DNA of 63,857 bases, counting the filler, from Octopus bimaculoides (lineage: Eukaryota), in NCBI RefSeq assembly GCF_001194135.2. It is 10 parts of 9 records of this genome, joined end to end, with 100 filler letters (N's around TTAATTAATTAA, not from the genome) between each part and the next. Parts side by side here need not be neighbours in the genome. Positions count along the whole stretch, not along the records: positions 19,425 to 25,866 come from NC_068993.1; positions 25,967 to 37,955 come from NC_068998.1; positions 38,056 to 45,541 come from NC_068992.1; positions 45,642 to 48,643 come from NC_068990.1; positions 48,744 to 61,392 come from NC_068991.1; 5 more parts are not named here. The stretch is one strand, 5' to 3'. The translations under genes were made by a program, and so were the position numbers. Positions 19,831 through 57,120 of this stretch are shown here, in pieces. The stretch's first letter is position 1. The number at the start of each line of letters is the position of its first letter. The notes below the pieces were generated by a model, which saw only the letters and a list, made by a program, of their open reading frames with translations, searched no databases and was not told the DNA's origin.

Positions 19831-19834
19831 AACA

Positions 19835-23449: not shown

Positions 23450-23883
23450 TTCTTTTACTTGTTTCAGTCATTTGCCAGTGGTCATGCTTGAGCAGCGCAC
23501 TTTAGTCGAAGAAATCGACCACTGAACGTATTCTCTGTAACCCTGGTGCTTATTCAATCAGTCTCTTTTGCCAAACAGCTAAGTTACAAGGATACAAACA
23601 CACCAACATCCGTTGTCAAACTATGGTTGCGGTTGTGGTGGGACAAACACAGACATAAACACACACATAAAAATATTATATATAACCTCATGTAACCTCG
23701 TGGGCATCGGTACCATTTTCCTCTTTCTCCGTTCTTCCATTCTCCGAACTTTCCATCTTTCCGACGAAGGGCTACGCCCGAAACGTCATACACTCTCTCT
23801 TTCCTTTCCTGAGCGTCCAATAATACTATCCATATCACGTCCTCACTTTGTTGTTTTTTTGTTTTTTTGTTATTGTTTTTTTG

Positions 23884-23928
<45 letters not shown>

Positions 23929-23995
23929 AGGCTTCTTTCAGTTTCCGTCTACCAAATTCACTCATGAGGCTTTGGTCGGCCCGAAGCTATAGTAG
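23450..23995 (-). mobile_element. CORE-type SINE family A interrupted by a ~200-bp insert in its central (TA)n
   Basis: SINE 3' half at 23450-23680 and 5' half at 23925-23995 flank the foreign segment 23685-23886. Confidence 0.75.
23761..23787 (+). ncRNA. Minimal type-I hammerhead ribozyme motif (PLE/retrozyme type)
   Basis: CCGACGA-A-GGGC-TAC-GCCC-GAAA-C-GTC: core with U4C, 4-bp stem II, palindromic ACGT stem III, GUC cleavage triplet; stem I is weak. Confidence 0.6.
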
Positions 23996-24504
23996 ATGAC
24001 ACTCTTTAAAGTATGGAGTTGAATTTCGTGTAGCCACTTGTTGTTTACTTTTCTCCCCTACCTATTTTGTAGGGGGTATTACCCATTTCTCTAGGCTCTT
24101 TACACAGCTGTATCCCGTTCGAAATTTGCATTAGTTTTTGTATGAAAAGAAAAACAGAAAGGGAGGTGGGCTTGTTTGTAGTTTGTAGAGAAAACGTTAA
24201 ACGTGCCTGAAGAAATAAACATGGTCTTTCCCCCCAACTAAAATACATGAAGAACAATGAAAGAAGGCGAATAAATACCGAGGATGGGGGAAAGAAGAGA
24301 GAACTAACAGTCGATTGTTCTAGAACTCCCAGAATAAAAACGTAAACACCCGAAAGACTTTCCTTCTATTCATTACTAAATGTCTATCCCTCTTTTTCAT
24401 TGTTAAAAGAAGCTAGAGAAGATCGATCGTATTGTAAATGATCGAGGCTTTTCTTTCTCTGTCTCTATTGCTTCATTCCTTTTCTCTACGGTTAAGAGAG
24501 TGAA

Positions 24505-24800
24505 GGTGCGTGGCTCAGTGGTTAGGGGTATTTGGCCCACGATTGTAAAGTTGTGAGTACGATTCCCTGCGGCGCGCTGTGTTTTTGAGCAAGGTACTCT
24601 ACTTCACTTTGCTGCAGTCCACTCAGCTGGCAAAAATGAGTTGTAGCTGTAATTCAAAGGGGCCAGCCATGTCACATTCTGTGAATTAGTTAATGGTATG
24701 CATGTCTGTGGAGTACTCAGCCATTTGCGCGTTAATTTTACGAGCAAACTGTTCATTGATCAGATAAACAGGAACCCATAGTGACCCTAACGACTAAAAA
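24505..24800 (+). mobile_element. tRNA-derived SINE family C (near full length), with a partial second copy at 24860-25015
   Basis: A box ggtgcgtggctcagtggttagg, B-box-like gtgagtacgattccc, CORE-like gtgtttttgagcaaggtact; the gctccagtccactcagctggc..aatgagt block is repeated at 24860. Confidence 0.7.
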
Positions 24801-25524
24801 GATTTTCCTGTCTCTATATAGAATCTTTTTTCGTTTTCTTTCAATAACTTCAAGGTTTATGTTGCTCCAGTCCACTCAGCTGGCCAAAATGAGTTGTAGC
24901 TGTAATTCAAAGGAGCCAACCTTGTTATATTTTGTGTGAAGCTGAATCTCTCTGGGAACTTCGTTAATGATATGCATGTCTGTGCAGTACTCAGTCACTT
25001 GCGAGTTAATTTTATCCTCGTGTGGTAATGAAAAGTAAAAGTGGCATCCAATATTTGCTGCGTCTACCTATCTATGTATCAACTTTTCTGTGTCTACTGT
25101 CTCACTTTTTCTCTTTCCCTTCTACTGTGTCCCTCCTCTCTCCCGCTTTTAATTTAACAATATGTGTGTGCATCTATGTATCTACTTTTCTTGCGATGTA
25201 ATAAACATTTAAAAACACAAAACGAACGCCGTCACCATTCACTGGCTCTTTCACTTTCTCTCTGACTCTCTCTCTTTCTCTTTTACTTCCTATCTGTCCT
25301 TCTCTCTCTCGCTTTGCCACTAACTTCTATGAAGTAAGTGTGACACATACGACAGGTACGGACAAAAAGAACAAATTGGCATATCAATATTATTGATTAT
25401 TGATGTATCAGCGAGAGACCGAGAAGAAATTGTTTTGCGGAGTCTTAATTTCTGCTTCATAATGGTTTCAGACTTGATCTATCTTCCTAACAACTCGCTG
25501 TCACACGTCCATGTTGTTTGGTAT

Positions 25525-25528
25525 TCGC

Positions 25529-25571
<43 letters not shown>

Positions 25572-25866
25572 TGGTTTTATTTTTATAACGTGTTTTCACT
25601 TCACTACTGAGCGCAGCTCTGTGTGCCTTGGGTATGTGCTGTGATTTGCTGTGATGCTCTGATGGTTACTGTATTGAAAGTGTTTTGCGTAGGATGTGTG
25701 CAGTACCAGTTTATTATTATTATTATTCAGTAGTTTTATTTTTATAACGTGCTTTCACTTCACTACCGAGCGCAGCTCTGTGCGCCTTGGGTATGTGCTG
25801 TGGTTTGCTGTGGTGCTCTTATGTTTACTGTATTGAAAGTGTTTTGCGTAGAATGTGTGCAGTACC
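25525..25866 (-). mobile_element. Two head-to-tail R4/Dong-like 3' tails, each ending in (TAA)n
   Basis: Both units are reverse complements of 19675-19830 (TAHILRKTLSIQ* plus 3' UTR), separated by (ATT)n. Confidence 0.85.
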
Positions 25867-25966
25867 NNNNNNNNNNNNNNNNNNNNNNNNNNNNNNNNNN
25901 NNNNNNNNNNTTAATTAATTAANNNNNNNNNNNNNNNNNNNNNNNNNNNNNNNNNNNNNNNNNNNN

Positions 25967-26018
<52 letters not shown>

Positions 26019-26329
26019 ATATGAATGTACGTACATATGTATGTGTATGTATATGCGCTCAATATTAGGTTTTATATTGATATATAGACTGTATGTGTAT
26101 GTATGTAGATACACATACATACACACACACATACACTCACACGCACACACATATATGCATGTATGGAATAAGTGTCTCTTTGTATAAGTATTTGTGCATG
26201 AGATTATTAGCTCAAGTATATTTCCATACCCAACACACATCTGTATCCTTTCTGTATTCCATCTTCGTTTTTATTTACTGATTGCTTTTTGAAACTTTAT
26301 TTATTTCTTCCTTCTTTTCTTTCTGTCTT

Positions 26330-26445
26330 TCTCTCATTCTTTCTTTCTTTCTTTCTTTCTTTCCTTCTTTCTTTCTTTCTTTCTTTCTTCCTTCCTTCCT
26401 TCTTTTCTTTCTTTCTTTCTTTCTTCCTTCCTTCCTTCCTTCTTT

Positions 26446-26492
<47 letters not shown>

Positions 26493-26495
26493 CTA
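26330..26495. repeat. (TTTC/TTCC)n microsatellite; representative of dozens of simple repeats ((TA)n, (CA)n, (GATA)n, (AAT)n, (TAG)n, (TTC)n) across the window
   Basis: Directly visible. Confidence 0.95.
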
Positions 26496-26682
26496 TCTAG
26501 TTATTTATTTTTATTATTTTTCAGGTATACTTTCATCATTTCTTTCCCAGAGACATACGAAGACATTGCAAATAACTGTGCTTTTAAGAATTCCTAATAG
26601 CATTTTTTTGTCAATAATGAAAGTATATATCTATACATACATGTACACGTACATACACACACACACGCACATACGTTTATAA

Positions 26683-26729
<47 letters not shown>

Positions 26730-26943
26730 AATTTATACATACGAATATATAAACACTCTCACACATGTATATACATATGTGCATATATATAGGTTATATA
26801 TGTCTCCACACATGCATATATACCAAGATAGATAGATAAATAGATGGATAGATAGATAAATAGATGTGTATATATTAATATATGCCTGTGTGTGCGTGTA
26901 ACCATGTGTGTATGTATATATCTATATCTATGTCTACATGTCA

Positions 26944-26976
<33 letters not shown>

Positions 26977-27509
26977 TACAAACATTTGCACACGCACACG
27001 CACACACACACATATTCACTCAGAAACAGACGATATCTTTGATGTTTATTGATGTGTCGCTAGCCAATATCAAACAAGCAACCAACCAAATATAAAAAAA
27101 AACCCTCCCCCGCAACCAAGCCGCCACCCTCTGAGTGGTTCGATCTTCAATCATCCGGCATGGTACATATTCGAGATCTAATTCAGTTTCGTCGGCACCA
27201 AATGTTGTTCCAAAACACAGAAATTCATTCCTTTCACTCAACATGCAGACAGATGTTCCAGTATCATTAATGAGGAATTTTCAGGAGACTCAGAGTCTGA
27301 AAAAGAGAAAAATAGAACTTTATTCTCTCGTCTACGAATGTTTTAATACATTTTATTTATGATATTCACTTACATAATCAACATCACACATATGATGGAC
27401 GTAAGTGGAATGTTTTCAATTTAACCTTTCCCTGTCGGAAATTGAGGCAATTCTTATTCTTTGGCCGCTTGCCATCAAAACATGTGAAGCTATTTATTTT
27501 TTCCCTCAG

Positions 27510-27596
27510 CGTCACCGAGAGCGGTGCTTAATTTTCGCAATGGGGAAAATATAGCGTCAGCGTTGTCTAAAAGACAAGTTCATAATTTATTCAAAG
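27510..27596 (+). CDS. Candidate 87-nt symmetric (phase 1-1) coding exon, product unknown
   Basis: Acceptor tatttattttttccctcag|, donor CAAAG|GTGGGT; only one open frame: SPRAVLNFRNGENIASALSKRQVHNLFK. No homology recognised. Confidence 0.4.
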
Positions 27597-27641
27597 GTGG
27601 GTTTTTGTGGCATGTGCCTTCAACATGAAATAAGCGCACAA

Positions 27642-27680
<39 letters not shown>

Positions 27681-29029
27681 GTCTTTTTATATAGAACTGT
27701 ATGTTCATTTCCTTTCTATTTATCTATATACACACATATATATGTGGAGGTGATTGTGACGGTGCGAGAAGTACAGCTGTGACCGAATACTTAAGAAATT
27801 CGCATCACAATTATGTGATACTTGATGAGATCCTACAACGTATCTTCACGTCATATGGACTTTATCTGAACTTCAAAATGCCGGCCTTTCCCAACTGATC
27901 CACGCCGATTTTACACGAGGGCTGCGTATAGTGTACATCCGTCCGTGGAATGCTGAGGCATATTTACTAGTTAATGCAATTAGTATGTCGTACAGTTGAC
28001 AATTCAAATAGAATATTCATCGTCGAAATCGACGAAGATCCACTTGTGTGTTAGTGCGTTGTATGTTTATAAATCGTTGTAAAGCAGTAAAGTACCGTCT
28101 TGCGTTAGATTCGTTTGCGTCAAATGCAGGTTAATCCATTCAATAAACAAGGATCAATAAATTATGAGTTTCACTAAGTACTGAGATCGATATAATCTGG
28201 GGGATGTGTTCCAGCATGACCGCAGCCTAATGAATGAAACCAGTTAAAAGAAAGAATTGAAATATCGAACAATAGTGTGATATTAAAATATAAAGAATAG
28301 TTATTGATTGTGTGATGTTGATGATTTTTCTTGAGTGTTTTATCTACTTAAGTGGCGACGAAATGACTACGATTCAAAAATAAGACTCATTACTTATTCC
28401 TTTTCATCTTAAAAATAAAATACTTTTTTTTTTTAATGGCATAGAATAAGGGAAAACTCTGTGGTTAAGAGATATAGGCTAAGATATATCGGACTCTGAC
28501 GATGATTGACCCTTAGATACGTGTAGCAGAGGCTCACCGTTGTCTCATTATACCGTGAGGTCCTGCGAGTTAGTCCCCCACCCCTGTCTAAAAGCTTAAC
28601 ACGCTTTGTACCTTAAGGATACGCTCATGAGAGTAGGAGACGAGTAGAGAAAATCAATCGAAAATAAACAACAGCTGCATCGTCGTTCCCAAATTGAAAG
28701 TCATGTATCATCAAAAAACTATGTAACACAGGTATGGATAAATTTGTGTGGTAATGGAGGACAAGGTACTCCAGAATGTTTGGCAACTGGACATGTATCA
28801 CATATGCTCATCATCTATGTATGCATCTGATGTGAAGTGATCTAATCCACTTCCCAAAAGGTTAAATATGCTCTGTGATTCAGTAATAAAGTTGAGAGTG
28901 TAGGAAACTAGCAATGTAAAGTGTTGGAAAGCCAGTTGAAAGTAAAAGGGAAACTACAATTGTATCTTTCTCAAGTAAAAACATGTCATGTCACACTTTA
29001 TAAAATGCAGATGATGAAGGTGACGATCT

Positions 29030-29200
29030 GGTAGAACCTTTAGCACACCGGAAAATTGTTAAGCGGCGTTTCGTCCGTCTTTATGATCTGAGTTCAGATT
29101 CAGCCGAGGTCAGTCATTCTGTTCAACTTTTCAAGGTCGATAAAGTAAGTACCCCTTGAGTACTGGGGACGATATAATCGATTAATACCCTTCCACAAAT
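29030..29200 (+). mobile_element. Partial SINE family B
   Basis: ggcgtttcgtccgtctttatgatctgagttcagattcagccgaggtc...aaggtcgataaagtaagtacc. Confidence 0.6.
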
Positions 29201-30180
29201 TTACAGTCTTTTTACCTATAGTAGAAAGGACATAAATCAGACAACAATAGCTTTGTGTGTGGAACAAGAGGACACGGGGCTCTATAATTGCCGATGCTTG
29301 CGGACATGAATAAATAACCAACAGGGAAAGCCATGACACTTTTCAGCTCTGCTAAAACTGGTGGCTGAAAGAGGTGACGTAGCCGCTTGAGCGGAGGCCA
29401 TTGCTGGAATTTTCTCAACAGAATATGCTCTACTAAATGTATAGTCCAGGTTGTGGTGGGTAAACAGAGTGGAAGTTTAATTCTAGCCCCCAAACCTAAG
29501 AACAAAAACAGATTTCTTCCAGAGTCCTCGTCAACCAAAAGTAGATTGACATAACTTTGACGGACCCGATGCTATACTCCAATGGTGCTCAACCGAGGAT
29601 CCATATAAGATATTGTTGTTGAAATATATGAGCAATAAATTGTTAGGCTTCTATAATGCACAAAAGATTTTAGCAATATTTTTATACAATTCTTCATAAT
29701 ATTTAATTATAAAAATATAAAAGGAATATTTTAAATATCGGATGACTATGCGGATCCAGCTAAATAAAATATGTATAAAAGAGGTCCGTAGGTAGAAAAA
29801 TGGTTGAGAACCACAGCAGCAGTCGCGTACTCTTTCCAAAGATGTCGAACAATGGGATCGAACGCGATAATTGCCTACTTACAAAGTGAACTCCTCAACC
29901 ATTCACGCAAGTGAACATTCATGAACTTGGCGCCCACGCAAGATGTCCTGTTTACAGCATGATGAGGTTAACATAGAATGATTCTGTATAATACGTGCAA
30001 TACTGTGTGAAGAATATAATTTAACTGATGTCGTTTATTCTTAATTACTTGTCTGAATTTTGAGAAAACATACATGAAGCTATCAACACTTAGGTCAGTA
30101 AGGAAACAGTCACCGTAAACACTAATAAAAATCTATAGGTAGTTATGCAGATAAATAAACAGATAGATAGATAGGTAAGT

Positions 30181-30217
<37 letters not shown>

Positions 30218-30273
30218 CACAGATAATCTGAGTGAGTCAGACAGATATGTGTATGTGTATGTGTAAGCATGCA

Positions 30274-30309
<36 letters not shown>

Positions 30310-30522
30310 NNNNNNNNNNNNNNNNNNNNNNNNNNNNNNNNNNNNNNNNNNNNNNNNNNNNNNNNNNNNNNNNNNNNNNNNNNNNNNNNNNNNNNNNNNN
30401 NNNNNNNNNNNNNNNNNNNNNNNNNNNNNNNNNNNNNNNNNNNNNNNNNNNNNNNNNNNNNNNNNNNNNNNNNNNNNNNNNNNNNNNNNNNNNNNNNNNN
30501 NNNNNNNNNNNNNNNNNNNNNN

Positions 30523-30574
<52 letters not shown>

Positions 30575-31029
30575 CATGTATGTATGTATATATGTATGTA
30601 AGTGGTTCGGAAGATTAATTTGAAGAAGTGAAAGGTTGTTTTATTTGGGTGAAATTAAACTTCACGATAACTTTGGTAATCCATCTTCGTTCTTTGTAGC
30701 CTACTTCCAAATCACCTAGACTGGCACGTGTCGGGTTTGTTTTTTTTTTACTGCTTTTGTATCGTAGCAACAGAGAATAAAAATGACGGTGCTGCTGGTA
30801 TTGGTGGGAGCGGTGATTTTCGTTAATTTGTTGTTGTTGATGTTGTTGTTGTGTAGCTGTCGATCGATGAGAACTATTTTAGAAGACGTCCTCGTCATAA
30901 CCAATTCCTTTCTGTTCAGAGATTAAACAGACGGAACAACGCCATTGTAAAACTGATTTCAAGTGGATGTCACCGGAAGGAACATGAAAGAGAGGAAGAT
31001 CGTACATAGTGCAGAACTTTCAGGCATGA

Positions 31030-31370
31030 ATATATGGTAGGAAATTTGCTTCACAACCAGATGGATCTGGGTTCAGTCACACTGAGTGCCACCTTGAGCA
31101 AGTGTCTTCAACTATAGCTTGTGAGTGGATTTGTTAGACGGAAACTGAAATAAGCCCGTCGTATATATGTCTATATGTAAGCATGTGTGTGCGTGTGTGA
31201 GTGTATGTGTGTATATCCCCCTTTACCGCTTAACAACTGGTGTTGGTGTGTTTACATCCAGGTAAGACAGCCTGATAGAAAAGTGACACGTTTTTAAAAG
31301 AAATATGTCCTGGGGTCGTTTCTTCAAGGTGATGCCTCAGCATGGCGGCAGTCTAATGACTGAACGAATG
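31030..31370 (+). mobile_element. CORE-type SINE family A (decayed, near full length)
   Basis: caaccagatggatctgggttcagtcacactgagtgccaccttgagcaagtgtctt...gtcctggggtcg...cagcatggcggcagtctaatgactgaa. Confidence 0.7.
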
Positions 31371-34029: not shown

Positions 34030-34470
34030 TCGTCGCATTGACAATAACTGAGAAATTTGAGCAGAGAATCTGTATCAAACCTTGTCAAAACTTTGGTCAT
34101 ACCTGCTCAGAACCCTACGCAAAGTTTTCAAAAGGTTTTCATCGTTTATGTGACTATGGAGGAGGTCTTGTGCAACTGAAATCCGAGTGTCCTCGTGGTC
34201 AGCTGAAAGCGGTTTTGACACAAACTTAGCAGACATGCGTCTCATACCCAAATCTTCAGTGATAATGGACTGAACCGTAACTAATCTGCACATCCTCTGA
34301 TAACTCACGGATGGTGATTCGACGATTTGCCGTCACAGTTGCACGCACATCTGCGATGTTTTTCTCGTTCTACTGATTGCGGGTCTCCCAGAACGTTCGT
34401 CAATATCGATATTTTTTCGTCCATCTTGGAAACGCCGCAACAAACTTTCTCATCGATGTCAGGCTCTACC
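34030..34470. mobile_element. Mariner transposase remnant with internal inversion
   Basis: Plus strand 34040-34130 encodes the N-terminus (EKFEQRICIKPCQNFGHTCSEPYAK); minus strand 34460-34130 encodes the following part (RFQDGRKNIDIDERSGRP..NRRITIRELSED..IITEDLGMRRMSAKFVSK..NLLKTL). Confidence 0.75.
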
Positions 34471-35149: not shown

Positions 35150-35540
35150 CTAGCACATCGAGCAAAATGCTTCTCGGCGTTTCGTCCGTCTTTTCATTCT
35201 GAGTTCAAATCCCACCATGGTCGACTTTGCCTGTCATGCTTTCGAAGCCGATGAATTAAGTACCAGTGAAACTCCAGGGTCGATGTAATCGACTGGTCAA
35301 AAATTTCAGGCCTTATGCCTATAGTAGTAAACATTTTTATTTGTGCTTGTGAAGGTGGTGCGTTGGTAGAATCGCTAGCACGCAGGACAAAATGCCCAGC
35401 GGCATTTCGTTTATACATTCTGAGTTCAAATTCCGCCTAGGCCGATGTCGCCTCTCATCCTTCCACAGTCGATAAAATAAATACCACTTTAACATTAATG
35501 TAATCGACAAAGCCACTACCCTGAAATTTCTGGTTTTGTA
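35150..35540 (+). mobile_element. Two adjacent partial SINE family B copies after a (TTC)n tract
   Basis: The family B core (ttctgagttcaaat..gtcgactttgcct..tcat..gataa..aagtacc) occurs at ~35195-35270 and ~35415-35490. Confidence 0.65.
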
Positions 35541-36487: not shown

Positions 36488-36524
<37 letters not shown>

Positions 36525-39267: not shown

Positions 39268-39321
39268 CTTTGTCTCCTTGTTGTGGTCTTTATGTTGAAT
39301 CCTTATATATATATATATATA

Positions 39322-39509
39322 AGTCCAACAGCTGTTTCTTGGAGTTCAGAGATGTATCATGATGTTAGTAGATGTAGTTCAAAATGATTCACCCATTTTC
39401 TACGCCGTGGAACAGATCTCCTGTAAAGACCTCGGAGTCTAAGTTTGTGTCTTTTGAGCGCTACTAATTGTCTTCTATACTGAAAATCTCTAAATCTCAT
39501 CTGTGGACT
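39322..39509 (-). ncRNA. Degenerate type-I hammerhead ribozyme with ~155-nt stem II domain
   Basis: AGTCCA-CAGATGA-GATTTAGAGAT...ATCTCTGAACTCCAA-GAAAC-AGCTGT-TGGACT: complementary stem I (AGTCCA/TGGACT), 9-bp stem II helix, palindromic ACAGCTGT stem III; core has U4A. Confidence 0.55.
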
Positions 39510-43403: not shown

Positions 43404-43824
43404 CTCTTTTACTCTTTTACTCTTTTACTTGTTTCAGTTATTTGAATGCGGCCATGCTGGAGCACCGCCTTTAGTTGAGCAAATCGACCCCAGGACTTAT
43501 TCTTTGGAAGCCTAGTACTTATTCTATCGGTCTCTTTTGCCGAACCGCTAAGTTACGGGGACGTAAACACACCACTATCGGTTGTCAAGCGATGTTGGGG
43601 GACAAACGCAGACACACAAACATTCACACACACATACATACATATATATATATATATACATATATACGACGGGCTTCTTTCAGTTTCCGTCTACCAAATC
43701 TACTCACAAGGCTTTGGTCGGCCTGAGGCTATAGTAGAAGACACTTTCCCAGGGTGCCACGCAGTGGGAATGAACCCGGAACCATGTGGTTGGTAAGCAA
43801 GCTACTTACCACACAGCCACTCCT
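43404..43824 (-). mobile_element. Full-length CORE-type tRNA-derived SINE (family A, OR-like)
   Basis: Head aggagtggctgtgtggtaag (A box), ggttccgggttcattccc (B box), CORE ggcaccctgggaaagtgtctt, central microsatellite, (GAGTAAAA)n tail. Confidence 0.9.
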
Positions 43825-45275: not shown

Positions 45276-45506
45276 GGCGGCGAGCTGGCAGAAACGTTAG
45301 CGCACAGGGCGAAATGCTTAGCGGTATTTCGCCTGCCGTTACGTTCTGAGTTCAAATTTCGCCGAGGTCGACTTTGCCTTTCATTCTTTCGGGGTCGATA
45401 AATAAAGTACCAGTTACGCACTGGGGCTGATGTAATTGACTTAATCCCTTTGTCTGTCCTTGTTTGTCCCCTCTATGTTTAGCCCCTTGTGGCCAATAAA
45501 GAAATA
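45276..45506 (+). mobile_element. Full-length young tRNA-derived SINE family B (OK/Meta-domain-like)
   Basis: ggcggcgagctggcagaaacgttagcgc (A-box region), gttctgagttcaaatt (B box), gaggtcgactttgcctttcat..gtcgataaataaagtacc central domain, aataaagaaat tail. Confidence 0.9.
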
Positions 45507-45671
45507 TATATGCCATGAGTTCAAATTCAGCCGAAGTTGACNNNNNNNNNNNNNNNNNNNNNNNNNNNNNNNNNNNNNNNNNNNNTTAATTAATTAANNN
45601 NNNNNNNNNNNNNNNNNNNNNNNNNNNNNNNNNNNNNNNNNTTATATTAAGTGCTTAATACATTTAATATA

Positions 45672-45908
45672 TTAGGGTGGTAAGCTGGAAGAATCGTTAG
45701 CACGTAGAACGAACTACCCTGTGGTATTTCGTCTGCCATTACGTTCTGAGTTCAAATTCCACCGAGGTCGACTTTGCCTTTCATCCTTTCGAGGTTGATT
45801 AAAAAAGTACCAGTTACACATTGGGGTCGATGTAATCGACTTAATCCCTTTGTCTTTTCTTGTTTGTCCCCTCTATGTTTTGCCCCCTGTGGGCAATAAA
45901 GAAATAAA
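45672..45908 (+). mobile_element. Full-length SINE family B
   Basis: Colinear with 45276-45506 over its whole length. Confidence 0.85.
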
Positions 45909-45910
45909 TA

Positions 45911-47915
45911 TCTATATATATATATAAAAAGGAGAATGTATGTCTGTGTGAATCCCTAAAACTCCAGAACTACACAACCAATTTCATTCCAATTTTACAC
46001 ATGCCTTACTTAGGGTTCCGGTTGTGTTGTAGTCAAAAACGTTTTTAACTTCTTGCATAGTTCGAGCCCACAGCAACATAATATCTCCTCCACTATTTAA
46101 GTATTGACGACTGACATGCGTGAAGTGCGGGTTGGCCAGTGTCAACACACACACACATCTACACATACATTTACATACCTGACGACTTGATTTTTATTAA
46201 CCACACAGGGTCGAAACACAGAGGGGACAGCACAAGGACAGACAAAGCACAAAAGTAGGGAAAAAAATAAAATCGAATGAAAAGAATGGTAATGATAAAT
46301 GAAAAGGTGGAATGACGTCTACTGGAACCCCAAACTCCAGTTAACGTCATTTAACGTTTTTAGAAAAAAAATTTAACACGTGTTATTTTATTTTTGTCTC
46401 TTTCTCTTTCTCATGCGTGAAGTGCTGTCTGGCCAGTGTCAATACGAAATTTTATTTTCATTTCCTTTAAAACGATACACATTTACTGTTCTATTACGAG
46501 TTAATAATTATTGCAGCAGTTGCAAGGTAAAATATAAAATTCTTTGTCTCTCTGTAATAATTATTGTGGTATTTACCGTTAAATTAGCAGTTCCAAACAT
46601 GTGCTATTTCGTTCATTTGCTTATATTTCGTTAATTTACACTGCATACAAAAATACGGACATACTATATACATACAACTGCTTACAAAAATAGAGATTAA
46701 TGTATTGGGTTGTCCGGAAAGTTCGTGCCGATTTATAATAGCTTACCTTTCGACATACTTGCCATGAAACCACCTCAATTCTGGGAAGAGGTTATTTTCA
46801 AGTTAAAGGAGAGATGGAGATGCATTGTGTAACAAAATGGTTCATATTTGGTTGATTATAAATATANNNNNNNNNNNNNNNNNNNNNNNNNNNNNNNNNN
46901 NNNNNNNNNNNNNNNNNNNNNNNNNNNNNNNNNNNNNNNNNNNNNNNNNNNNNNNNNNNNNNNNNNNNNNNNNNNNNNNNNNNNNNNNNNNNNNNNNNNN
47001 NNNNNNNNNNNNNNNNNNNNNNNNNNNNNNNNNNNNNNNNNNNNNNNNNNNNNNNNNNNNNNNNNNNNNNNNNNNNNNNNNNNNNNNNNNNNNNNNNNNN
47101 NNNNNNNNNNNNNNNNNNNNNNNNNNNNNNNNNNNNNNNNNNNNNNNNNNNNNNNNNNNNNNNNNNCAAGAGAGAAAGGAGATGAGATTTTCCCAAGATC
47201 AGCTAAGGCATGCTGCAATACTTAATGCTGAGTCATTAGAACAACGTTTAGCACGCTATATTAAACAGATGTCCAATACAATATAGCTCTCAGAAATAGA
47301 CCACAGGCAAATTCGTTCTTCACACACCAGGAGTTGCTTTCAGACATGATCCATCCCAGCCTTATAAAAATGATAATTCTGTACAAATTGGTGTGCTACA
47401 AATTGTCTTTTCTGCAAAGCTTTCAAATTTCCAAATGAAACTAGTGGCATGTGCTGCTCAGGCGGTAAGGTAAGAATACCAGCACTACCAGCTCCTCCTC
47501 GACGTCTTTCGACAGTTCACTTCCCCGTCACCGTCTCCCATTAAAGCCCATTCCCAGAATGTACCCATTTACGTACAATATCTCCATTACACCTCAATTC
47601 ATTTGACTGTTAACCATAAGATGGGTCGTGTTACACACAGCGCTGAACGCCTCAAAGGCGAGTATATCCACTGACAGCTTTTCAGTGGGTTCAAAAATTA
47701 CACCCCCCACGCCAGTTTTCCACGCTAGGTTAGGGCATGGAATCCTCCAAACGGATGTATTGCATGTCGATTAGTCGAAATAGACCATCATTTACTCTAC
47801 AAATGTTTTGTCGTCAATGCTACACTTTCCCGTATCACCTGTTTCAACATAACTGTAATATATATAAACAAACTATACCATTTTAATCCCGAGCAACGCC
47901 GGGTATCTCCGCTAG
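45911..47915 (+). mobile_element. Non-autonomous Helitron with both termini, retaining the Rep N-terminal fragment
   Basis: A|TCTATATATA 5' end at 45911; 3' hairpin CCCG-AGCAACGC-CGGG (47888-47903) followed by CTAG|T (47912-47916); internal CLFCKAFKFPNETSGMCCSGGKVRIPALPAPP (47404-47499) is the Helitron N-terminal Cys motif. Confidence 0.9.
46703..46735 (+). mobile_element. Mariner-type TIR nested in the Helitron
   Basis: TA + ttgggttgtccggaaagttcgtgccgattt resembles mariner terminal repeats; the partner end is not visible (gap). Confidence 0.45.
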
Positions 47916-48743
47916 TATTTAATATGTTTGATGCATCTAATTTGTTTATCCCAATGATTGCTTCGGTATATATAGATAAGTTTATAAGTGTATATAAGTG
48001 TATAAATATATACATACATGTGTGCGTTGTGACACTTCTCAATGGCAAAAGGCTGTGTATAAGAATCAGCTTTTGTGTCCAGCAGACGTAATATCACCTG
48101 CTTCTTTTATTCAAGACATCTTCTGATTGATCAGCCATGCAATTCACAATTGCAACGAGAAGAATAAACTGTGAAGTGAATCACCAGCTGTTCTCTCATA
48201 CACACATACATATACATACATACATATGTTTGTATCCATGTATAAACATGTGTGTGGCAAGTATGTATGTATTATGCATGTATGTGTGTGTATGTATGTT
48301 CTGACCTTGTGAAGAGGAGCATATGTTCAGCAGACATATCATCAGCTGCTCCTATTCACGAGACAGTCTGATTCATCTCACTTGAAAATCATGTTTCTAA
48401 TTATGAAATATATCACCAGCAGTGTGTGTGTGTGTGTGAACTTAAGTCAGTAACTGGCTCCAAGACATGTGACTTCTTAACTCAAAAATATAACATAACA
48501 TGGAAAATCAATTTTAAAAATTTATTATATCTGTTTAAATAAATGATTTGTTAATATTTTCACGTTTTCTTTGATCTTTCCTCTTCAGTATTGTTTTTTT
48601 TTTTTGAGGGTTTAAAAAAATATTTTTATGTTTTTACATATGTNNNNNNNNNNNNNNNNNNNNNNNNNNNNNNNNNNNNNNNNNNNNTTAATTAATTAAN
48701 NNNNNNNNNNNNNNNNNNNNNNNNNNNNNNNNNNNNNNNNNNN

Positions 48744-49125
48744 ACTTGTCTCTAAGTCTCTGTCCATTTGCAGGGTCTTTAAGCTTCCACACCCTTCTCC
48801 TCCAAGCCGGTCTAATTCTGGGCACCCATTTTGCCTTGATCCCAAAGTCGCTAACTACTAATCTATGTTGTGGGGTACATTCTTCGCCAGGGTAGGTTTT
48901 GGCATTTATAAGCCGCCCTCTTTCCCTATTTCTGGCGAGGATGTAGTCGATTTGGCTAGTGTCTGCCGGAGTGGTAGGTGACTAGGTGACTGGCAGGTTT
49001 CCTGAAGTTGGTATTGCAGACCATAAGATCGGTTGCATCACAGAACTCCAGCAGTCTGGTTCCCTCCTTGTTGTGGGAACCGAAGCCATAGCCTCCATGT
49101 ATGCCATGGAAGCCTCTGCAAGATT
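48744..49125 (-). mobile_element. RTE LINE apurinic endonuclease fragment
   Basis: GFHGIHGGYGFGSHNKEGTRLLEFCDATDLMVCNTNFRKPASHLVTYHSG followed by frameshifted QIDYIL..HRLV motifs. Confidence 0.9.
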
Positions 49126-49158
49126 CTTGATGTGAAATTGTGAGTTGAAACAGATACA

Positions 49159-49480
49159 GTTGTATTTGGGGATGGTCATGTTGCCAGTTTAGCCAATAAA
49201 AACACACGCACTATATATTTGGTGTTAATTTGCTTCAGCTTTATATTACATTAATCGTATTTCAGCCAGAGTTCTTTCGTCATACTTCTGATCATTAGTA
49301 AGGAGGTACACACAAATAAGAATAAAGAAAGCAAAGGACCACTGATGAGGTCACAGAAGTGTGACGAAAGAACTCTGGCCAAAATACGATTAATGTGATA
49401 TAAAGCTGAAGCAAATTAACATCAAATATATAGTGCATGTGTTTTTATTGGCTAAACTGGCAACATGACCATCCCCAAAT

Positions 49481-49485
<5 letters not shown>
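49159..49485. repeat. Long inverted repeat (~140-bp arms, ~95% identical, ~43-bp spacer) carrying hammerhead motifs at the inner ends
   Basis: 49159-49298 is the reverse complement of 49342-49485 with 6 substitutions over the outer ~130 bp, then an indel in the ribozyme part. Confidence 0.93.
49336..49380 (+). ncRNA. Type-I hammerhead ribozyme with intact catalytic core
   Basis: GGACCA-CTGATGA-G-GTCACA-GAAG-TGTGAC-GAAA-G-AA-C-TC^TGGCC: CUGAUGA and GAAA cores, 6-bp stem II with tetraloop, minimal stem III, CUC triplet (cleavage after 49375), stem I CCA/UGG plus GG/CC. Confidence 0.75.
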
Positions 49486-49522
<37 letters not shown>

Positions 49523-50362
49523 TTTAACATTGGAACCCAAAGTATTTCTCTCTCTTGAGGCAAAATAGTAAACTCCAAAACTTAAACAGATTAAAAATTA
49601 AAAGCAGACAGTGAAAAGTTAGTCTGATCTTTAACATGCAGATAGCTTTGGATATGTTTCAATTTTATTAAATCTCCTCAATGAGTGGAATATATACTTC
49701 AACATGTACTTGAATGTCAATATTTTAAACTATATAATCACTGCCTAGAAAAAAAAGTAAACAAATTCTCAAAATCATTCTATGATCTGATGTTAGACTA
49801 GATTTTACTGATGAGGACTAATAATGTGAAAACATATTCAGAGTTATCAACATACAAACCAAAGATCAGTCATATTCCCCTACTTCGTGACGCCATTTAA
49901 TTTTCAAACGATTTGTAGTTCAGCGTCCTCTCCCTTGCTTTTTCTGACAAAAACTGCCATTAACACCATCCACAAAGATTTAACTTCAATGGAATAAAAT
50001 TATCTTTGGGGTTGTTTTTGATTAAATAATTCACCAACACTTAAAGGAATGACTGCTTGGACAACAGCAAAAACCATTCCATATTCAGTCAAATGACGAG
50101 TAACAAGAAAGTTTGAACCGAACCAAACCAAGCTACAACCATTGTGTAGTACTTCATTTCACACAACTCCCATCATTGATAAGATATATTTTGATGGCTT
50201 CAGTTTGCATTAGTTGAAAATAAGAGCAGCAGAAGACATAATGGAAACTGAGCAAACATCTACTCAAACAAAACACACACACACATCTCCATAACTTTAA
50301 TTCATTAACAGATATAGAAAAAAAGATACAAAATAAAAGGATTATAGGTATTTAAGTCTTAC

Positions 50363-50424
50363 TTGGGTTTCTTCATGGGGTTGGAGGAATCCCGTTTGTC
50401 GGGAAAACGCTTACCACTAGACAT
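50363..50424 (-). CDS. First coding part of an unidentified gene (exon 50439-50363; MSSGKRFPDKRDSSNPMKKPK...)
   Basis: Acceptor tattatttcag| at 50440/50439, donor CCAA|GTAAGA at 50363/50362, ATG at 50424; basic NLS-like peptide; a matching upstream non-coding exon exists. Confidence 0.55.
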
Positions 50425-50982
50425 CTTTTTCTTGTATAACTGAAATAATACAAGGAACATCATTATATTAATGTCTAGTTTTCCATGCTTACATAGGTCA
50501 ATAACATTTTTACTGATGCAGAATTTTCTATGGCCAGATGCTCTTCCTGTTTCAAACCTTTTGTCTATTTCCAGGCACTCCAGCACTCTTTATGCGACAT
50601 GTGTGGGCCTGTACTCTCCTGTTAAGTAAATTATTGGAATGACAGCTACCATGACCAGACCTGGGATGAATATTTAAGTGGATTCCCATTGACTTCTCCA
50701 TCTGTTGATGGGAACTGAACTCAGAAAGTAGAGAGTCAGAAGATATACCATAAAGCATATCTGACGATGCGCCAACGATCCTGCCATTTTCCCACCAGCA
50801 GAATGTGAAACGAAAATTTTTGCGCAAGAACACAACATGCCACCCAGTACAGGAATTGAATCCACAATCTAGCAATTGTGAGGGCAACACCCGAACCACT
50901 AGGCCACAGAAACATCCCTAAACTTTTGATAGGAAGCCTAACGAAAACGATGGTTCTGAAATTACATTTACCATAAGATTTA

Positions 50983-52829
50983 TCATCATCCTCATCGTTT
51001 AACGTCTGTTTTCCATGCTAGCATGGGTTGGACGGTTTCGACCAGGGTCTGGGAAGCCAGGAGGCTGTACCAGACACCAGTCTGATCTGGCAGTGTTTCT
51101 ACAGCTGGATGCCCTTCCTAACGCCAACCACTCCTTGAGTGTAGTGGGTGCTTTTTACATGCCACTGGCACAGGGGCCTGAGGAGGCTAGCAATAGCCAC
51201 GATCAGTTGGTGCTTTTTACGTGCCACCGGCACGGAAGCCAGTCAAGTCGGCGCTGGCATCAGCCACGTTCGGATGGTGCTTTTTACATGCCACTGGCAC
51301 AGGTATCACAACTACAATTTCCATTGATTTTTATTTTGATGTTGATGTACTTCACTCAATAAGTTTCCTCAAGCACAGCAGGTTGCCCTCTGATCCAAGG
51401 TACTTTTGAATGGGCTTGGGTTGGTTATGCGAAACTGGTGTAGGATACAGCTGTGAACCGACTTTATTTATCGGGTTTTTGCTGTCACGGCATATCTCCA
51501 GAGGTCTTGATTTTTCGTCATTGCCTCTGTTTGAAGGGTCATGCTTGACCACCTCATCCCATGTCTTCCTGGGTCTACTGCTACTCCGGATACCGTCAAC
51601 TTTGGGAGTGGCATTTCTTCACACATCTCTCCTCATCCATCTGTAGTACATGACCATACCAGCGCAAACATCTCTCTTGCACGCCACATCCGATGCCTCT
51701 TAGGTCCAACATTTCTCTCAGGTCGCTTATTACACATCCAGCAGATCATGCTAGCTTCATTTCTTTCGAGCCTACGCATGTCCTCCGCAGTCACAACCCA
51801 TGTTTCACTGGCGTGAAGCATGGCAGTTCGCACACATGCATCGTACAGTCTACCTTTCACTCTGACTGAGAAGCCTTTGTCACCACTAGGGGTAGAAGCT
51901 TTCTAAACTTTGCCCAGGCTAATCTTATTCTAGTGGTAACACTCTCTGAGCATCCACCCCCACTACTAACTTGGTCACCTAGGTAGCGGAAGCTATCAAC
52001 TACTGGTGTGTGGTGGAATCTGTTTTCTGAGCATCTGTGGTGTTTATTGCCCCTGTGCATCTGCCGCACATGAAAGCTATCTTCTCGGTTAATCTTCCTT
52101 TGATGTTGCTGCACCTCTTATGTGTCCATAGCTTACACTGGGTACATCTTACGGAGTTTCTACCTATACACTTTTTCTACACATCGAGCAGGGCCACCTA
52201 CCTGAGTGGGTGTGTGATGAGTTCGCCTTCCTACTTACTAGAACTTTGGTCTTTGCTACATCGACTCTAAGGCCTTTTGATTCTAAACCTTACTTCCACA
52301 CCCAAATTTCTTTTCTAGTTCCAGTAGTGATTCTGCTATGAGGGCCAGGTCATCAGCATAGAGGAGCTCCCAGAGGCAACCTGTCTTGAATTTCTCTGTT
52401 ATTGCCTGGAGGACTATGATGAATAAAAGGGGACTGAGGGCTGAACCTTGGTGGACCCCTACTTCTACCTGGAATTCTTCACTATACTCATTGCCATGAC
52501 TCTATCATGACTCTATCATGAACGACCTGGTTTACAATGCGAGTGACTAGGCCATAGACCACACCACCAGATGTTTTAAGCAGCTCAGCAGTGATTCCTG
52601 ATGAGCCTGGGGCTTTTCCTGGCTTTATACCCTTAATTGCTTTATCTACAAGGGAACTGGCTATTCGGATAGCTGGTCCCTCTACTGGGTCAACATTTGG
52701 CAGGCTCTCCTCCTCTCATTCATTCTCCACGTTCAGCAGTCTTTCATAATGGCTTCTTTAAGCCTCTTTCTTTTCAGAATCATCAAAAGCAAGTGCACCA
52801 TCATCCATGCTGACACATTTCTCTCCTAC
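50983..52829 (-). mobile_element. RTE-clade LINE, 3' half (RT, PHD-like finger, C-terminus, 3' UTR, (GAT)n tail), disrupted
   Basis: KAPGSSGITAELLK; VGVHQGSALSPLLF; ELLYADDL (YADD at 52360-52349); RIRLAWAKF; KGRLYDACVRTAMLHASETW; tail ccaacccatgctagcatggaaaacagacgttaaacgatgaggatgatga. Confidence 0.93.
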
Positions 52830-53043
52830 TAACATACAAATTAAATATGAAAATTAAAAAAAAAGACCTGCTATTATTAAAAAAATATTTCAAGTGACAT
52901 TTTATGGCATTGTCAGAGTAGCCTCCCTTGTAGTAAACAAATGAACGAGTTCCAAGAGTTACTTAGCTCTAGGTCACTATTAACAGGGTAGACCTACATT
53001 TACTCTAGCATTGACCATCCGGTCTTTTCCTGGTAACGCTTAC

Positions 53044-53130
53044 TTCGGCCCACAGTAACGTCTTCTCATGGTAGCATTTGCTGTGAGTTGGATGTTTGTC
53101 GTTTTGTTATTCCTAACAAGTTCCGGTATA
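53044..53130 (-). promoter_or_regulatory. Candidate non-coding first exon and promoter of the gene starting at 50424
   Basis: Donor GAA|GTAAGC at 53044/53043; locally CpG-richer; CCGGAA and ATCGAT motifs near 53120-53137; an in-frame TAA and no in-frame ATG make it 5' UTR. Confidence 0.45.
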
Positions 53131-53149
53131 CATCGATCATGAGTGTTAT

Positions 53150-55170
53150 AGTAAATATTTATAGGGAAAGTGAACGGGTTGGTGAGGAGGGGAGCAAAAA
53201 TTCACGAGTCCGTTTTGTTTCTTCATAACTTGCAGAAAAATGGGAAGCGTATTTTCCAAAGGTATTTCCTACAAATACCTTTCAGATGGTGTAGATTACG
53301 ATTATATCGGAATTTAATATAAAAAGAAATTGGAGGGTTGCAAACAAACATATTGACACACATCACATGTATCAACAAAATGAAACTTGAAATTTCGGGA
53401 AAGATTGCCGAGTAAAAGTTTACCCATGTTCTTTCTGCGGGTCATAAACAAAAATTGTATCGATTTTGTTTTAGTACACACTTTAAGCCCAGACGTATCA
53501 TATATATATTCAAACAGGACAGCAAGGCAATCCTTCGATATATATTTATGCGACACTGTTTTGTTGTTTTTCCCCCTAAAAAAATTGGTCCGCCAGCACG
53601 CATTTTTTTTTTCATATTTGTTTACTACATGTTGTTTTACACCTTTTTCATTATATTTTTTTTCATTTTTGTGACCGGGTGTCGAAAGTGATGTTACTGA
53701 ATCGTGTGAATTATCCGAGTCAACACCTCACCCACTCCCGTCACAAAGAATTGAAGAAAGAAATAGTGTTACTAGGTGTAAAATGATGTGTAGTAAACGA
53801 GGCAATCCTTCGTTTTAACTCGACAAAATCAAAACAAACGAATATGAAGAAAAAAATATTCCGAGTCCTTTCCATTTTTTTTTTTCATATTTGTTTATTA
53901 CATGTTGTTTTACACATAATTCTTTTTTTTTTCTTTGTTCGGATCAAACACTGGAGTTTGACCAAAAAATTACTGAGTGATCATTGTCCCTAATTTACAA
54001 ACGCTTTTCTTCATTTAGTCGTATCAAAGAGGTCGATGAAAAATATATATATATGTGAAATACCGATAACTAAAGGAAGAATTCCCAGCTGTTATTTCCT
54101 GAATGTCGATCGATCGCAAGAAGGCTTAATCGATGCTTCGAGCTGGAACTAATTGTCGACTCCAAGTCAGTTCTGAGTGAACAAGCTAATCAAGTGCCAG
54201 TGTTAGAGTTCCTTCGTTAGCTCTGTAACGTTAAGTTAGGGAACCCTATTCGCCTATGACGAAACTTTAAAAAATCAAGCTTGAGCATATATATACAAAC
54301 ACTAGTTGTTTGAGACTATAAGGTTACATAAGCAGTTAAAATTTTTTTAACAATGATTGTCAACATGGAATATTCAGAAAAGTCTTGCCGAATATTCTAG
54401 TCAAGTACTGATATTCTGTAAATAATTTCTATTTGCATCATAACCGGGAGTTTAGTAAGAATCACCTACGCATATGTTGATTTTTTTTCCCCTCGAAAAA
54501 TAACTTCGTAGCCAACTTAAAAATCGAAAGTAAAATTTACTAAGTCATTTACGAGACATAAATACGCAAACAACCTAGTAAATAAATTCATTTATATTTG
54601 TATTAAAACTGTAAATAGTTCGTGTGGATGCAAATAAATCATTTAAAACATTTATCTTCGAAAAAGTTTAATTACTCACCAGACCACAAGATTACTTCGT
54701 AAATGGCGCGAAATTTTAACACAGATATTAACTCCCCTCTCAGTCGGCGTAATATTAAGATAAGTTCCTTTGAAATTAGATGTCCGAGTAATCCTCGTTC
54801 GCTAAATATTGAATGGGTTGGTTCCCTTACAATTAGATACAAATCCACAAGTTGCAGTAAAAATAAATAACCTGATACCCGAATATTTTTAATATCGTTG
54901 TGAAATTAACTGTGTGAAGTTTTCGTTTACTTGAAATAAATAAGTAACTGGTCTGGTTGTTAATTAATAATTCGGTGGACATTGGAATTAGACACTGAAG
55001 GAAAATGGCTGTAACTTTTTTATTTTTTAATTTTGACGATATTCGTTTTCGATAATGTGTTCTATATGTCACGGTCATGCGATTCCCCCTAAAAAAATTT
55101 TGGACCACCCCCTCCCCTCCCCCACACACGGGGGGGGGGCGATTTTCATTTTTGACATTGTGTTCTACAT
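53150..55170. repeat. Unclassified ~2-kb non-coding element with an internal ~275-bp duplication
   Basis: aggcaatccttcg at 53525 and 53800; tttttcatatttgttta(c/t)tacatgttgttttacac at 53602 and 53874; no convincing ORF. Confidence 0.35.
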
Positions 55171-55179
55171 GTTCAGGTC

Positions 55180-55698
55180 GTACGAATAGCCTTCTCGCAA
55201 CTTAGATGTGAAAATTATACTGTCCATTACCCAACAAAGTTCCTTAATTCTCTTGAGCCACCTAGAACTCCTCCACATAAACTTTTTCTGAAGGCAGGAG
55301 TCCTAATAATGCTTCTAAGAAATTTAGATCCTCCTAAATTATGCAATGGGACAAGGTTGATTGTGAAAACATTATCATCTGATGTCATAGAAGCTACCAT
55401 CATCACTGGATGTGCCTCTAGGGAAGAAGTTTTCATTCCAAGAATTCCAATCAAGCCAACAGACATGTTATGTGAGTTCAAACGAACACAATTCCTAGTG
55501 TGAGTTTACTTCGCAATGTTTATTAATAAAGCTCAAGGTCAGGCTTTGAAATCTACTGGCTCTCACTTATTTGAGCCTTGCTTTTCTCATGGTCAACTTT
55601 ATGTTGGTTGCTCCAGGGTTGGTAATTTGCAAAACGTATTTGTCTATGCTCCAAACCAGAAAACAAAGAATGTTGTTTACCCAGAAGCTCTTAAGTAA
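55180..55698 (+). mobile_element. Helitron PIF1-like helicase C-terminal fragment (pseudogene)
   Basis: MLLRNLDPPKLCNGTRL...FIPRIP..FKRTQF..FAMFINKAQGQ..CFSHGQLYVGCSRV..TKNVVYPEAL*. Confidence 0.9.
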
Positions 55699-56014
55699 TT
55701 TCCTTCAACATATGTGATAGAATTTAATCTCCCTTCATAAAAGTGGTAAATTTTGTATTTTCGTTTATTATTATTATTATCATTTTGTATTATGAACTCA
55801 GAATTGATTTTCCATTTGAAGAATAAATTGTATCCCAGTTGAAGAATAAGTTTGTGGTTTATTTATTATTCAAGCTTATGTCTATTCCTCCGTGGTGTTG
55901 TTTTGCATTTATAATGAAATAGATATATACAAATTATAAAAATAATGAATAAAAGCATACAGCACAGTACTGTTTCTACTTTGTAGATTTTCACCTGCAA
56001 TAATCAAGGGAATA

Positions 56015-56053
<39 letters not shown>

Positions 56054-56193
56054 GATATNNNNNNNNNNNNNNNNNNNNNNNNNNNNNNNNNNNNNNNNNN
56101 NNNNNNNNNNNNNNNNNNNNNNNNNNNNNNNNNNNNNNNNNNNNNNNNNNNNNNNNNNNNNNNNNNNNNNNNNNNNNNNNNNNNNNNNNNNNN

Positions 56194-57120
56194 AAGTTTA
56201 CGGGTAAAAACTCAATTAAATTCAATTTATCAAAAATTGAAATTAAATTAAGTTTCACAGTATAAAATATATAAATATATAGTTTTAGAGAAAAGAACCA
56301 AAGTTCATGAACTCATTCATGAAAATCCACAGTCACATATAGAAAAATTAATAAGTAAATGGACAATAAATAAGTATAATATGATACAAAGTAAAAATCA
56401 TAAGATAATGATAATAAAACGACTACACGTGTTTCATGACCAAGTTTTCAAAGAGAAAATAAAATATATTAAAATCGATTAAATTAATCGAAAATCAATT
56501 CTATTCAACGATATAGCTAATCTTCAGGTCAAAATACAACAATAATAATAATAAAAAGAATGTATATATCAACCAACAATAAATAACAAATGAATGTATA
56601 TAAAAATACTTATTATATTAAGATAGAAAAATGTAAAACAACATTATTAAAATTATCAAAAATTATAAATGTGCCATAATTAACTTTACGTTTATTATAA
56701 TATAAACTAACAGAAATATTATATGCAAATCTTATCTTAACGAATCTTTCGTTTAAACTAAAATTATAAACGTAAAATATAAATTAACAAAAAATTCATT
56801 TATATAAATTAATATATAAAAGCAATTATATCACCATTAAATAAAGGAAAACACATTTAACAAAATTATTGAAAAGAAATACAAAATTTATCTAATCGCA
56901 TCTTTAGTTTAAATAAAATTAAAATGTACTATTGACTTATATAAAAAAATTATATAAAAATTATATAAAGAAATTATATAAAAAAAACTACTTATTTATC
57001 CCATAAATCAAAAAGAAATATTAAACAGTATTATTGGAAAAATTTCAACCCTAATCTAATCGAAGTTTTCGTTTAAACTAAAATGATAAACTTAATACTA
57101 TTAACTTACTGTTAAATAAG
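56194..57120. repeat. Very AT-rich PLE-terminal-repeat-like region with a ~55-bp direct repeat
   Basis: ttcgtttaaactaaaat(t/g)ataaac at ~56748 and ~57068; contains the hammerhead-like motif at 56420-56531. Confidence 0.4.
56420..56531 (-). ncRNA. Degenerate type-I hammerhead motif with ~85-nt AT-rich stem II domain
   Basis: TGAC-CTGAAGA...GAAAC-ACGTGT-A-GTCG: intact cores, 8-bp palindromic stem III (ACACGTGT), GUA triplet, stem I UGAC/GUCG; the base of stem II pairs poorly. Confidence 0.5.

What the first reader, a model, noticed from the sequence alone, without database searches (positions are those of the whole stretch)
23685..56531. Four unrelated short hammerhead-bearing units beside microsatellites: candidate cephalopod retrozyme-like system
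Seen: type-I hammerhead motifs at 23761(+), 39322(-), 49336(+) and 56420(-), on three different scaffolds, with no similarity outside the core. All have a tiny stem III (palindromic ACGT, ACAGCTGT, ACACGTGT, or a 2-nt loop). Stem II domains range from ~11 to ~155 nt. None has an adjacent ORF, and three abut (TA)n tracts. Established: minimal palindromic-stem-III hammerheads from PLEs and metazoan retrozymes cleave as dimers, and some produce circular RNAs. Inference: several non-autonomous ribozyme retroelement families, mobilised by PLE RTs such as the one at 13.7-15.8 kb, favour TA microsatellites in this genome. Four in ~50 kb of called sequence suggests very high copy number.
Basis: partly seen in the sequence, partly recalled or inferred. 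Interest (0 to 1): 0.75.

Follow-up and report, generated by a model that had tools for sequence, protein, structure and literature searches.

The report
Truncated Penelope retrotransposon ends, not retrozymes
The four motifs are the broken-off tail ends of four abundant Penelope-type jumping genes that sit in TA repeats of a likely octopus genome; three carry a predicted (untested) self-cutting hammerhead RNA, the fourth is a look-alike made by an inverted join, and this pairing is already well known.

Summary
Verdict: ordinary. Each unit belongs to a high-copy family, and longer copies of each run, without a gap, into a Penelope-like (PLE) GIY-YIG endonuclease frame, two also into a reverse transcriptase. 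The window's RT at 13.9-15.5 kb is 86% identical in DNA to the family whose 3' end is the 49336 unit, so that link is in cis. The 39322 unit is a chimera: its 'core' is the antisense of the element's terminus, joined by an inversion; the family's native hammerhead has a 97-nt stem II domain. No short head-to-tail arrays were found (0 of 137 loci; 1 of 200 listed exact hits, across a 10-N gap). TA targeting and high copy number are confirmed. One unstranded RNA-seq run showed no end pile-up at the predicted cut sites. Solo hammerheads as truncated PLEs (PMC4209133) and a (TA)n-inserting octopus Hydra PLE with hammerhead (PMC8557442) are in print, and the scan reached the same reading on other DNA (e1-8829949, e1-10332479). 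Residue of interest: sharp 5' boundaries in short copies and a fifth, missed family with a variant core.

The parts
23690..23887 (+). U1: 5'-truncated 3' end of a young PLE with CX4CxxC linker and CCHH-type GIY-YIG; inserted in the TA spacer of another common repeat
   Evidence: host repeat 23440-23684 plus 23892-24003 matches 43410-43745
23761..23787 (+). U1 hammerhead-like motif, core CCGACGA (U4C), palindromic ACGT, 1-bp stem I; predicted cut after 23787
   Evidence: U4C in 72 of 72 parsed copies; 543 exact 27-mers
23888..23926 (.). (TA)n target tract at the U1 3' end
   Evidence: 30 of 30 family ends
39318..39381 (-). U2 inverted arm: only the 3' half of the family's native hammerhead (GAAACAGCTGTT at 39338-39327)
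39393..39509 (+). U2 sense arm: 3' terminus of a Hydra-like PLE; its antisense supplies the false core CAGATGA (39503-39497)
49117..49290 (-). U3 inverted arm with ~40-nt tail and a degenerate second hammerhead copy
49288..49486 (+). U3 sense arm: 3' end of an RT+GIY-YIG PLE; hammerhead 49342-49375, predicted cut after 49375; (TA)n follows
56194..57134 (-). U4: AT-rich 3' UTR, hammerhead (core 56527-56521, GAAACACGTGTA 56435-56424, 85-nt stem II domain), main end near 56281 and tail of a Hydra-like PLE; ends at an N gap
13857..15703 (-). Broken PLE RT copy, no endonuclease; same family as U3
   Evidence: 85.7% DNA identity over 1720 nt to L231; 82-88% protein identity
18622..18957 (+).

Best explanation
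The four units are short 3'-end remnants of four Penelope-like retrotransposon families whose longer copies encode a GIY-YIG endonuclease, and they were likely made when the element's enzymes nicked a (TA)n tract, primed reverse transcription at a TA-like spot near the RNA's 3' end and stopped or flipped early. Shown: fixed 3' ends at TA, variable 5' ends, inverted 5' arms, optional tail, physical link to EN (all four) and RT (U3, U4). Inferred: target-primed reverse transcription, and that the hammerhead normally trims tandem precursor RNA as a dimer through its palindromic stem III. A lone copy would cleave poorly or not at all; U1's motif (U4C, 1-bp stem I) is probably weak; U2's window motif is an accidental product of the inversion.
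For: U1: L260/L145 runs EN to 3' UTR to U1 with no N; a copy 100% identical to the window's has EN about 1.1 kb upstream across a gap; Pfam GIY-YIG E=7e-4, below the curated cut-off. U3: L231 is inverted U3, RT, EN, U3 with no N; L241 is RT, EN, U3. U4: L254 runs RT, EN, U4 with no N; L255 adds an inverted U4. U2: L172 and L165/L258 run EN to native hammerhead. Unselected copies: U1 5' ends -22 to -448 (39 copies, 8 bounded by N gaps), U3 -4 to -2276 (21 copies, 2 into the ORF). TA within 14 nt of the end: U1 30 of 30, U2 23 of 36, U3 tail 13 of 17, background 4-6%. Inverted hammerhead pairs in 9 of 137 loci, short direct pairs in 0. Same picture in PMC4209133 and PMC8557442.
Against: Long copies are rare: 0 of 39 unselected U1 copies reached EN within 2.5 kb. 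5' ends are not uniform: 9 of 30 U1 copies start at -71/-72 and none beyond in that sample, which could mean a short template RNA. No RT was linked to U1 or U2 in the loci fetched, and no intact ORF was found for any family. Pfam recognised only 1 of 4 endonuclease pieces; the others rest on motifs and tblastn. One U3 direct pair 205 bp apart and three rare back-joints in RNA, 3-4 reads each, are unexplained.
Confidence: 0.9

Rival explanations
1. Non-autonomous non-LTR retrozymes: tandem 150-450-nt units cut by hammerheads into monomers, circularised and re-inserted by PLE enzymes.
For: Most copies are short and non-coding; one 205-bp direct pair with two intact U3 motifs; one RNA joint from near the U3 3' end back to about -60, 4 reads from 2 starts; earlier unchecked notes report true tandem families elsewhere in this genome.
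Against: All four families run into PLE coding sequence; 0 of 137 loci with a short direct repeat; the one direct pair has identical copies around a 10-N gap, likely a scaffolding duplicate; no fixed unit length; U2 is a chimera.
Confidence: 0.04
2. PLE ends that also spread on their own: short copies derive from RNA started at a promoter inside the terminal repeat (or from priming on the 5' repeat of a tandem transcript), so solo repeats behave like SINEs mobilised in trans.
For: Pile-ups of 5' ends: U1 at -70/-71 in 10 of 39 and 9 of 30; U3 at -56 to -71 in 9 of 30; U5 27 of 30 start at or after -30, 10 at -27 to -30, 31 nt below a TATAAAA. A TATA plus initiator in a PLE terminal repeat and trans-mobilisation by terminal repeats are described in PMC3846280 (passages).
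Against: The U1 hot spots all begin with AT, matching the TA target, so microhomology explains them as well; no start-site data; U1 has no TATA box there. This is an add-on to, not a replacement of, the PLE origin.
Confidence: 0.2
3. Chance motifs in AT-rich repeat DNA.
For: Loose long-stem descriptor is not above shuffles; no Rfam hit listed; true for the U2 window motif.
Against: Strict descriptors exceed shuffles; motifs sit sense to the ORF in the 3' repeat in all families; U4 and native U2 match the published Hydra hammerhead pattern; exact-match controls are 0.
Confidence: 0.02

Closest known systems
Minimal hammerheads in the pseudo-LTRs of metazoan Penelope-like elements (Cervera and De la Pena 2014, PMC4209133; parts 1-2 of 4 read)
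   Same: Short or absent helix III with palindrome, extra nucleotide at the base of stem II, short helix I, mostly solo copies ascribed to truncated PLEs, opposite-strand pairs 100-700 bp apart.
   Different: Octopus not seen in the parts read; U1 has fixed U4C; U2 and U4 families have 97- and 85-nt stem II domains.
Hydra-clade PLEs, incl. Hydra-1_Obim (Craig et al. 2021, PMC8557442; section 11, passages, Files S1/S2 and alignment excerpts seen)
   Same: U4: DKT, LYRDD, CxCX5C linker, CxxC and CxH around E/N, no CCHH, (TA)n insertion, ctgaagat...tgaa acac/gtgt hammerhead. U2: same EN motifs; U17 and mismatch at stem II base as in several S2 rows.
   Different: S2 Hydra rows have 3-10-nt loop 2; here stem II is much longer. 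Neither family was aligned to Hydra-1_Obim; its S2 hammerhead differs from both.
Neptune/Nematis-type C-terminal EN+ PLEs (motif definitions from PMC8557442)
   Same: U1, U3 and U5: C-terminal GIY-YIG with CX4CxxC linker and CxxC inside the core, microsatellite targeting, inverted 5' arm and tail.
   Different: Clade not fixed by a tree here.
Metazoan non-LTR retrozymes (PMC7229834, passages; bioRxiv 10.64898/2026.07.22.740005, part 1 of 5)
   Same: Type I hammerhead, non-coding short copies, PLE connection.
   Different: Defined by head-to-tail arrays with a hammerhead per unit, mostly canonical motifs, and circular RNA; none shown here, and these units are attached to coding PLEs.

Membership tests
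EN+ Penelope-like elements | C-terminal GIY-YIG endonuclease frame upstream of the unit, same strand | tested here: met
   All four families, gap-free loci L260, L172, L231, L254; Pfam hit for U1 only
EN+ Penelope-like elements | PLE reverse transcriptase upstream of EN | tested here: inconclusive
   Met for U3 and U4; not reached for U1 and U2 in the loci fetched
EN+ Penelope-like elements | 5' truncation, inverted 5' copy, optional tail, partial tandem | tested here: met
   (L231, L234, L255, L268)
EN+ Penelope-like elements | Type I hammerhead in the terminal repeat, sense to the ORF | tested here: met
   U1 degenerate; U2 window copy holds only half
Hydra clade (U2, U4) | DKT, CxCX5C linker, CxxC and CxH, no CCHH, (TA)n insertion | tested here: met
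   Motifs read against PMC8557442 section 11; DKT seen for U4 only
Hydra clade (U2, U4) | Phylogenetic placement of RT | not tested
   No tree built
Neptune/Nematis group (U1, U3) | CX2-5CxxC linker plus CCHH endonuclease at the C-terminus | tested here: met
   which of the two clades not resolved
Metazoan non-LTR retrozymes | Head-to-tail arrays of 150-450-nt units, a hammerhead in each | tested here: not met
   0 of 137 loci; 1 of 200 listed exact hits, at a 10-N gap
Metazoan non-LTR retrozymes | Non-autonomous, no coding parent in cis | tested here: not met
Metazoan non-LTR retrozymes | Abundant unit-length circular RNA | tested here: inconclusive
   One unstranded standard RNA-seq run, about 6% read; three back-joints of 3-4 reads, none at a cut site
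Hammerhead ribozymes | Self-cleavage | not testable with these tools
   No end pile-up at predicted sites in RNA; genomic 5' ends at the site 3 of 30 (U1, confounded by AT) and 0 of 30 (U3)

The most novel reading that the evidence does not exclude
Octopus PLE terminal repeats act as their own SINE-like source genes: a promoter inside the repeat starts a 200-390-nt RNA just upstream of the hammerhead, which PLE enzymes paste into (TA)n hundreds of times, an intermediate between PLE and retrozyme; the families also carry hammerhead variants (85-97-nt stem II; C(A)UGAYGA core whose stems II and III are wholly swapped between two subfamilies) that would extend the known fold.
Probability: 0.2. 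Interest if true: 0.45.

Novelty: new member of a known kind. Interest (0 to 1): 0.15.

Why it matters
As it stands it adds four or five octopus families to a known class and warns that inversion junctions of PLE ends can fake hammerheads with long stems. If the sharp 5' boundaries are transcription starts, these young, near-identical families would give a direct test of how retrozymes arise from PLE terminal repeats and of whether the PLE hammerhead needs to cleave at all, since the youngest family carries a fixed U4C core.

Tried and rejected
Rfam scan: no hammerhead in the 150 of 183 rows shown. Mitochondrial origin of the AT-rich U4 region was considered and dropped: it is a dispersed repeat with a PLE ORF upstream. 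Six-frame reading of the U4 3' UTR gave no ORF. Pfam found nothing for the window RT pieces and no GIY-YIG for three of four EN pieces. Search for U1's RT upstream of EN in L262, L263, L265 met truncations. Sequencing-run search listed no indexed RNA holder; one raw RNA run was laid, is unstranded, and cannot give strand or starts; the last 42 nt of U1 were skipped as repeat. Test of cleavage from genomic 5' ends was inconclusive; the U5 pile at +40 turned out to be a subfamily with other stems. First U2 regex matched nothing and was redone. U4's 36 of 37 TA count is inflated by its own AT-rich tail and is not used. Monomer folds were not more stable than shuffles. Literature: six searches found no paper on these specific families; Repbase and Dfam could not be checked. 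bioRxiv supplements were not seen.

Full report
Window. It is a pack of ten stretches. The units are named U1 (23761+), U2 (39322-), U3 (49336+) and U4 (56420-). They lie on G000 contigs C13, C12, C11 and C11. The genome has 2.34 Gb; that it is an octopus is recalled from its repeats and was not tested.

Observation. The quoted letters are present and the four units share nothing else (0 of 6 pairs). A structure-aware scan against 40 local shuffles passed U3 under the strict setting (1 against 0) and U1, U3 and a new site at 18635 with one core mismatch (3 against mean 0.125). U2 and U4 as they stand in the window passed no setting, and the loosest long-stem setting was not above chance (7 against mean 4.0). 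Rfam listed no hammerhead in the rows shown.

Copy number. First-look candidates were 2046, 696, 2000 and 2555 for U1-U4 (lower bounds, 40 scored each). Exact hammerhead strings occur 543 times (U1) and 1103 times (U3), controls 0. The best U1 matches are 99-100% identical, so this family is young.

What lies upstream. U3: longer copies run into an endonuclease frame. U4: about 1.3 kb of AT-rich 3' UTR, then EN and RT; L254 is gap-free and L255 has an inverted U4 at its 5' end. Its motifs (DKT, LYRDD, CxCX5C, CxxC, CxH) are those given for the Hydra clade. U1: a CA-rich 3' UTR of about 1.3 kb joins it to a GIY-YIG frame, gap-free in L145/L260; Pfam GIY-YIG E=7e-4. U2: L172 and L165 run from a Hydra-type EN to the family's hammerhead.

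U2 is a chimera. Only the first 123 nt of the query matched family copies. The native motif is CTGATGA (18 of 23 copies), a 9-bp stem closing about 97 nt, GAAACAGCTGT and U17. The window copy kept only its 3' half, inverted against the terminal 117 nt. The two ends happen to resemble each other, which is why a fold closes them.

Architecture. 3' ends are fixed and sit on TA: U1 30 of 30, U2 23 of 36, U3 14 of 44 at the main end (many others continue into a tail) and 13 of 17 at the tail end, against 4-6% background. 5' ends vary in unselected copies: U1 -22 to -448, U3 -4 to -2276. Of 201 loci, 137 held a hammerhead region; 9 had an inverted pair, one a direct pair 1540 bp apart, none a short direct pair. 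Among 100 listed exact hits each, U1 had no same-strand pair under 1 kb and U3 had three head-to-head pairs and one direct pair of 205 bp whose identical copies flank a 10-N gap.

RNA. One raw RNA-seq run, unstranded, about 6% read, covers U1 (1395 reads) and U3 with its EN (2304 reads). No molecules pile up at the predicted cut sites. Three back-joints of 3-4 reads from 2 starts each were seen, none at a cut site; genomic partial tandems, library artefacts and rare circles cannot be told apart.

Mechanism. Shown: link to EN and RT, TA-anchored 3' ends, truncation, inversion, tail. Inferred from established PLE biology: nicking of (TA)n, priming at TA-like spots of the RNA, early stop or strand flip. 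Hammerhead action as a dimer in tandem transcripts follows PMC4209133, which found no activity for a single minimal motif and low activity for dimers. U1 carries U4C in 72 of 72 parsed copies with a 1-bp stem I; PMC3088659 notes U4C lowers activity in vitro (passage). Cleavage was not tested.

Against this reading. Long copies are rare (0 of 39 unselected U1 copies reach EN). 5' ends pile up just upstream of the hammerhead in U1 and U3 and most sharply in a fifth family at 18622-18957: 27 of 30 copies start at or after -30, 31 nt below a TATAAAA. That family also runs into a GIY-YIG frame. AT microhomology with the target or a start site in the terminal repeat could each explain the pile-ups.

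Comparison and novelty. PMC4209133 already describes thousands of solo minimal hammerheads as truncated PLEs and opposite-strand pairs. PMC8557442 describes inverted 5' copies, tails and (TA)n bias, and lists an octopus Hydra element with (TA)n preference and hammerhead. Retrozymes are defined by tandem units and circles; those tests fail or are inconclusive here. Earlier unchecked notes of this scan reach the same reading on other DNA and report separate tandem families. Verdict: new members of a known kind, interest 0.15.

Noticed in passing
   Followed up: partly
window 57300-57700 (-), core at 57372: Another repeat with a CTGATGA core and a TA-rich end into which U4 appears inserted; a relative in L057 has a GAAAC half upstream of the core, a permuted order.
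   Followed up: no
window 55156-55503 and 58604-59320 (+): Two Pif1 helicase fragments, likely Helitron remnants.
   Followed up: no
window 21094-22550 (-): Broken non-LTR retrotransposon RT fragment (RVT_1).
   Followed up: no
window 2819-3229 (+): Helix-turn-helix fragment resembling a DNA transposase N-terminus.
   Followed up: no
window 7914-7987 (+): tRNA-like gene, GUU anticodon, 65.8 bits.
   Followed up: no
window 203-646 and 9086-9532 (-): Two exon-like frames of an apparent membrane protein on the first stretch; no Pfam match.
   Followed up: no
window 19671-19839, 25552-25866; 45283-45911: 156-bp repeat in direct and inverted copies; the match 45283-45511 to 45683-45911 spans a pack joint and is two separate repeat copies.
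   Followed up: no
L310 = G000:C2:10927323-10927561: Two identical U3 ends 205 bp apart around a 10-N gap; a similar head-to-tail joint appears in 4 RNA reads.
   Followed up: partly
L187, L207 (U4 family ORF): Asparagine-rich stretch between RT and EN, like the N-rich inserts described for rotifer PLEs in PMC3846280.
   Followed up: no
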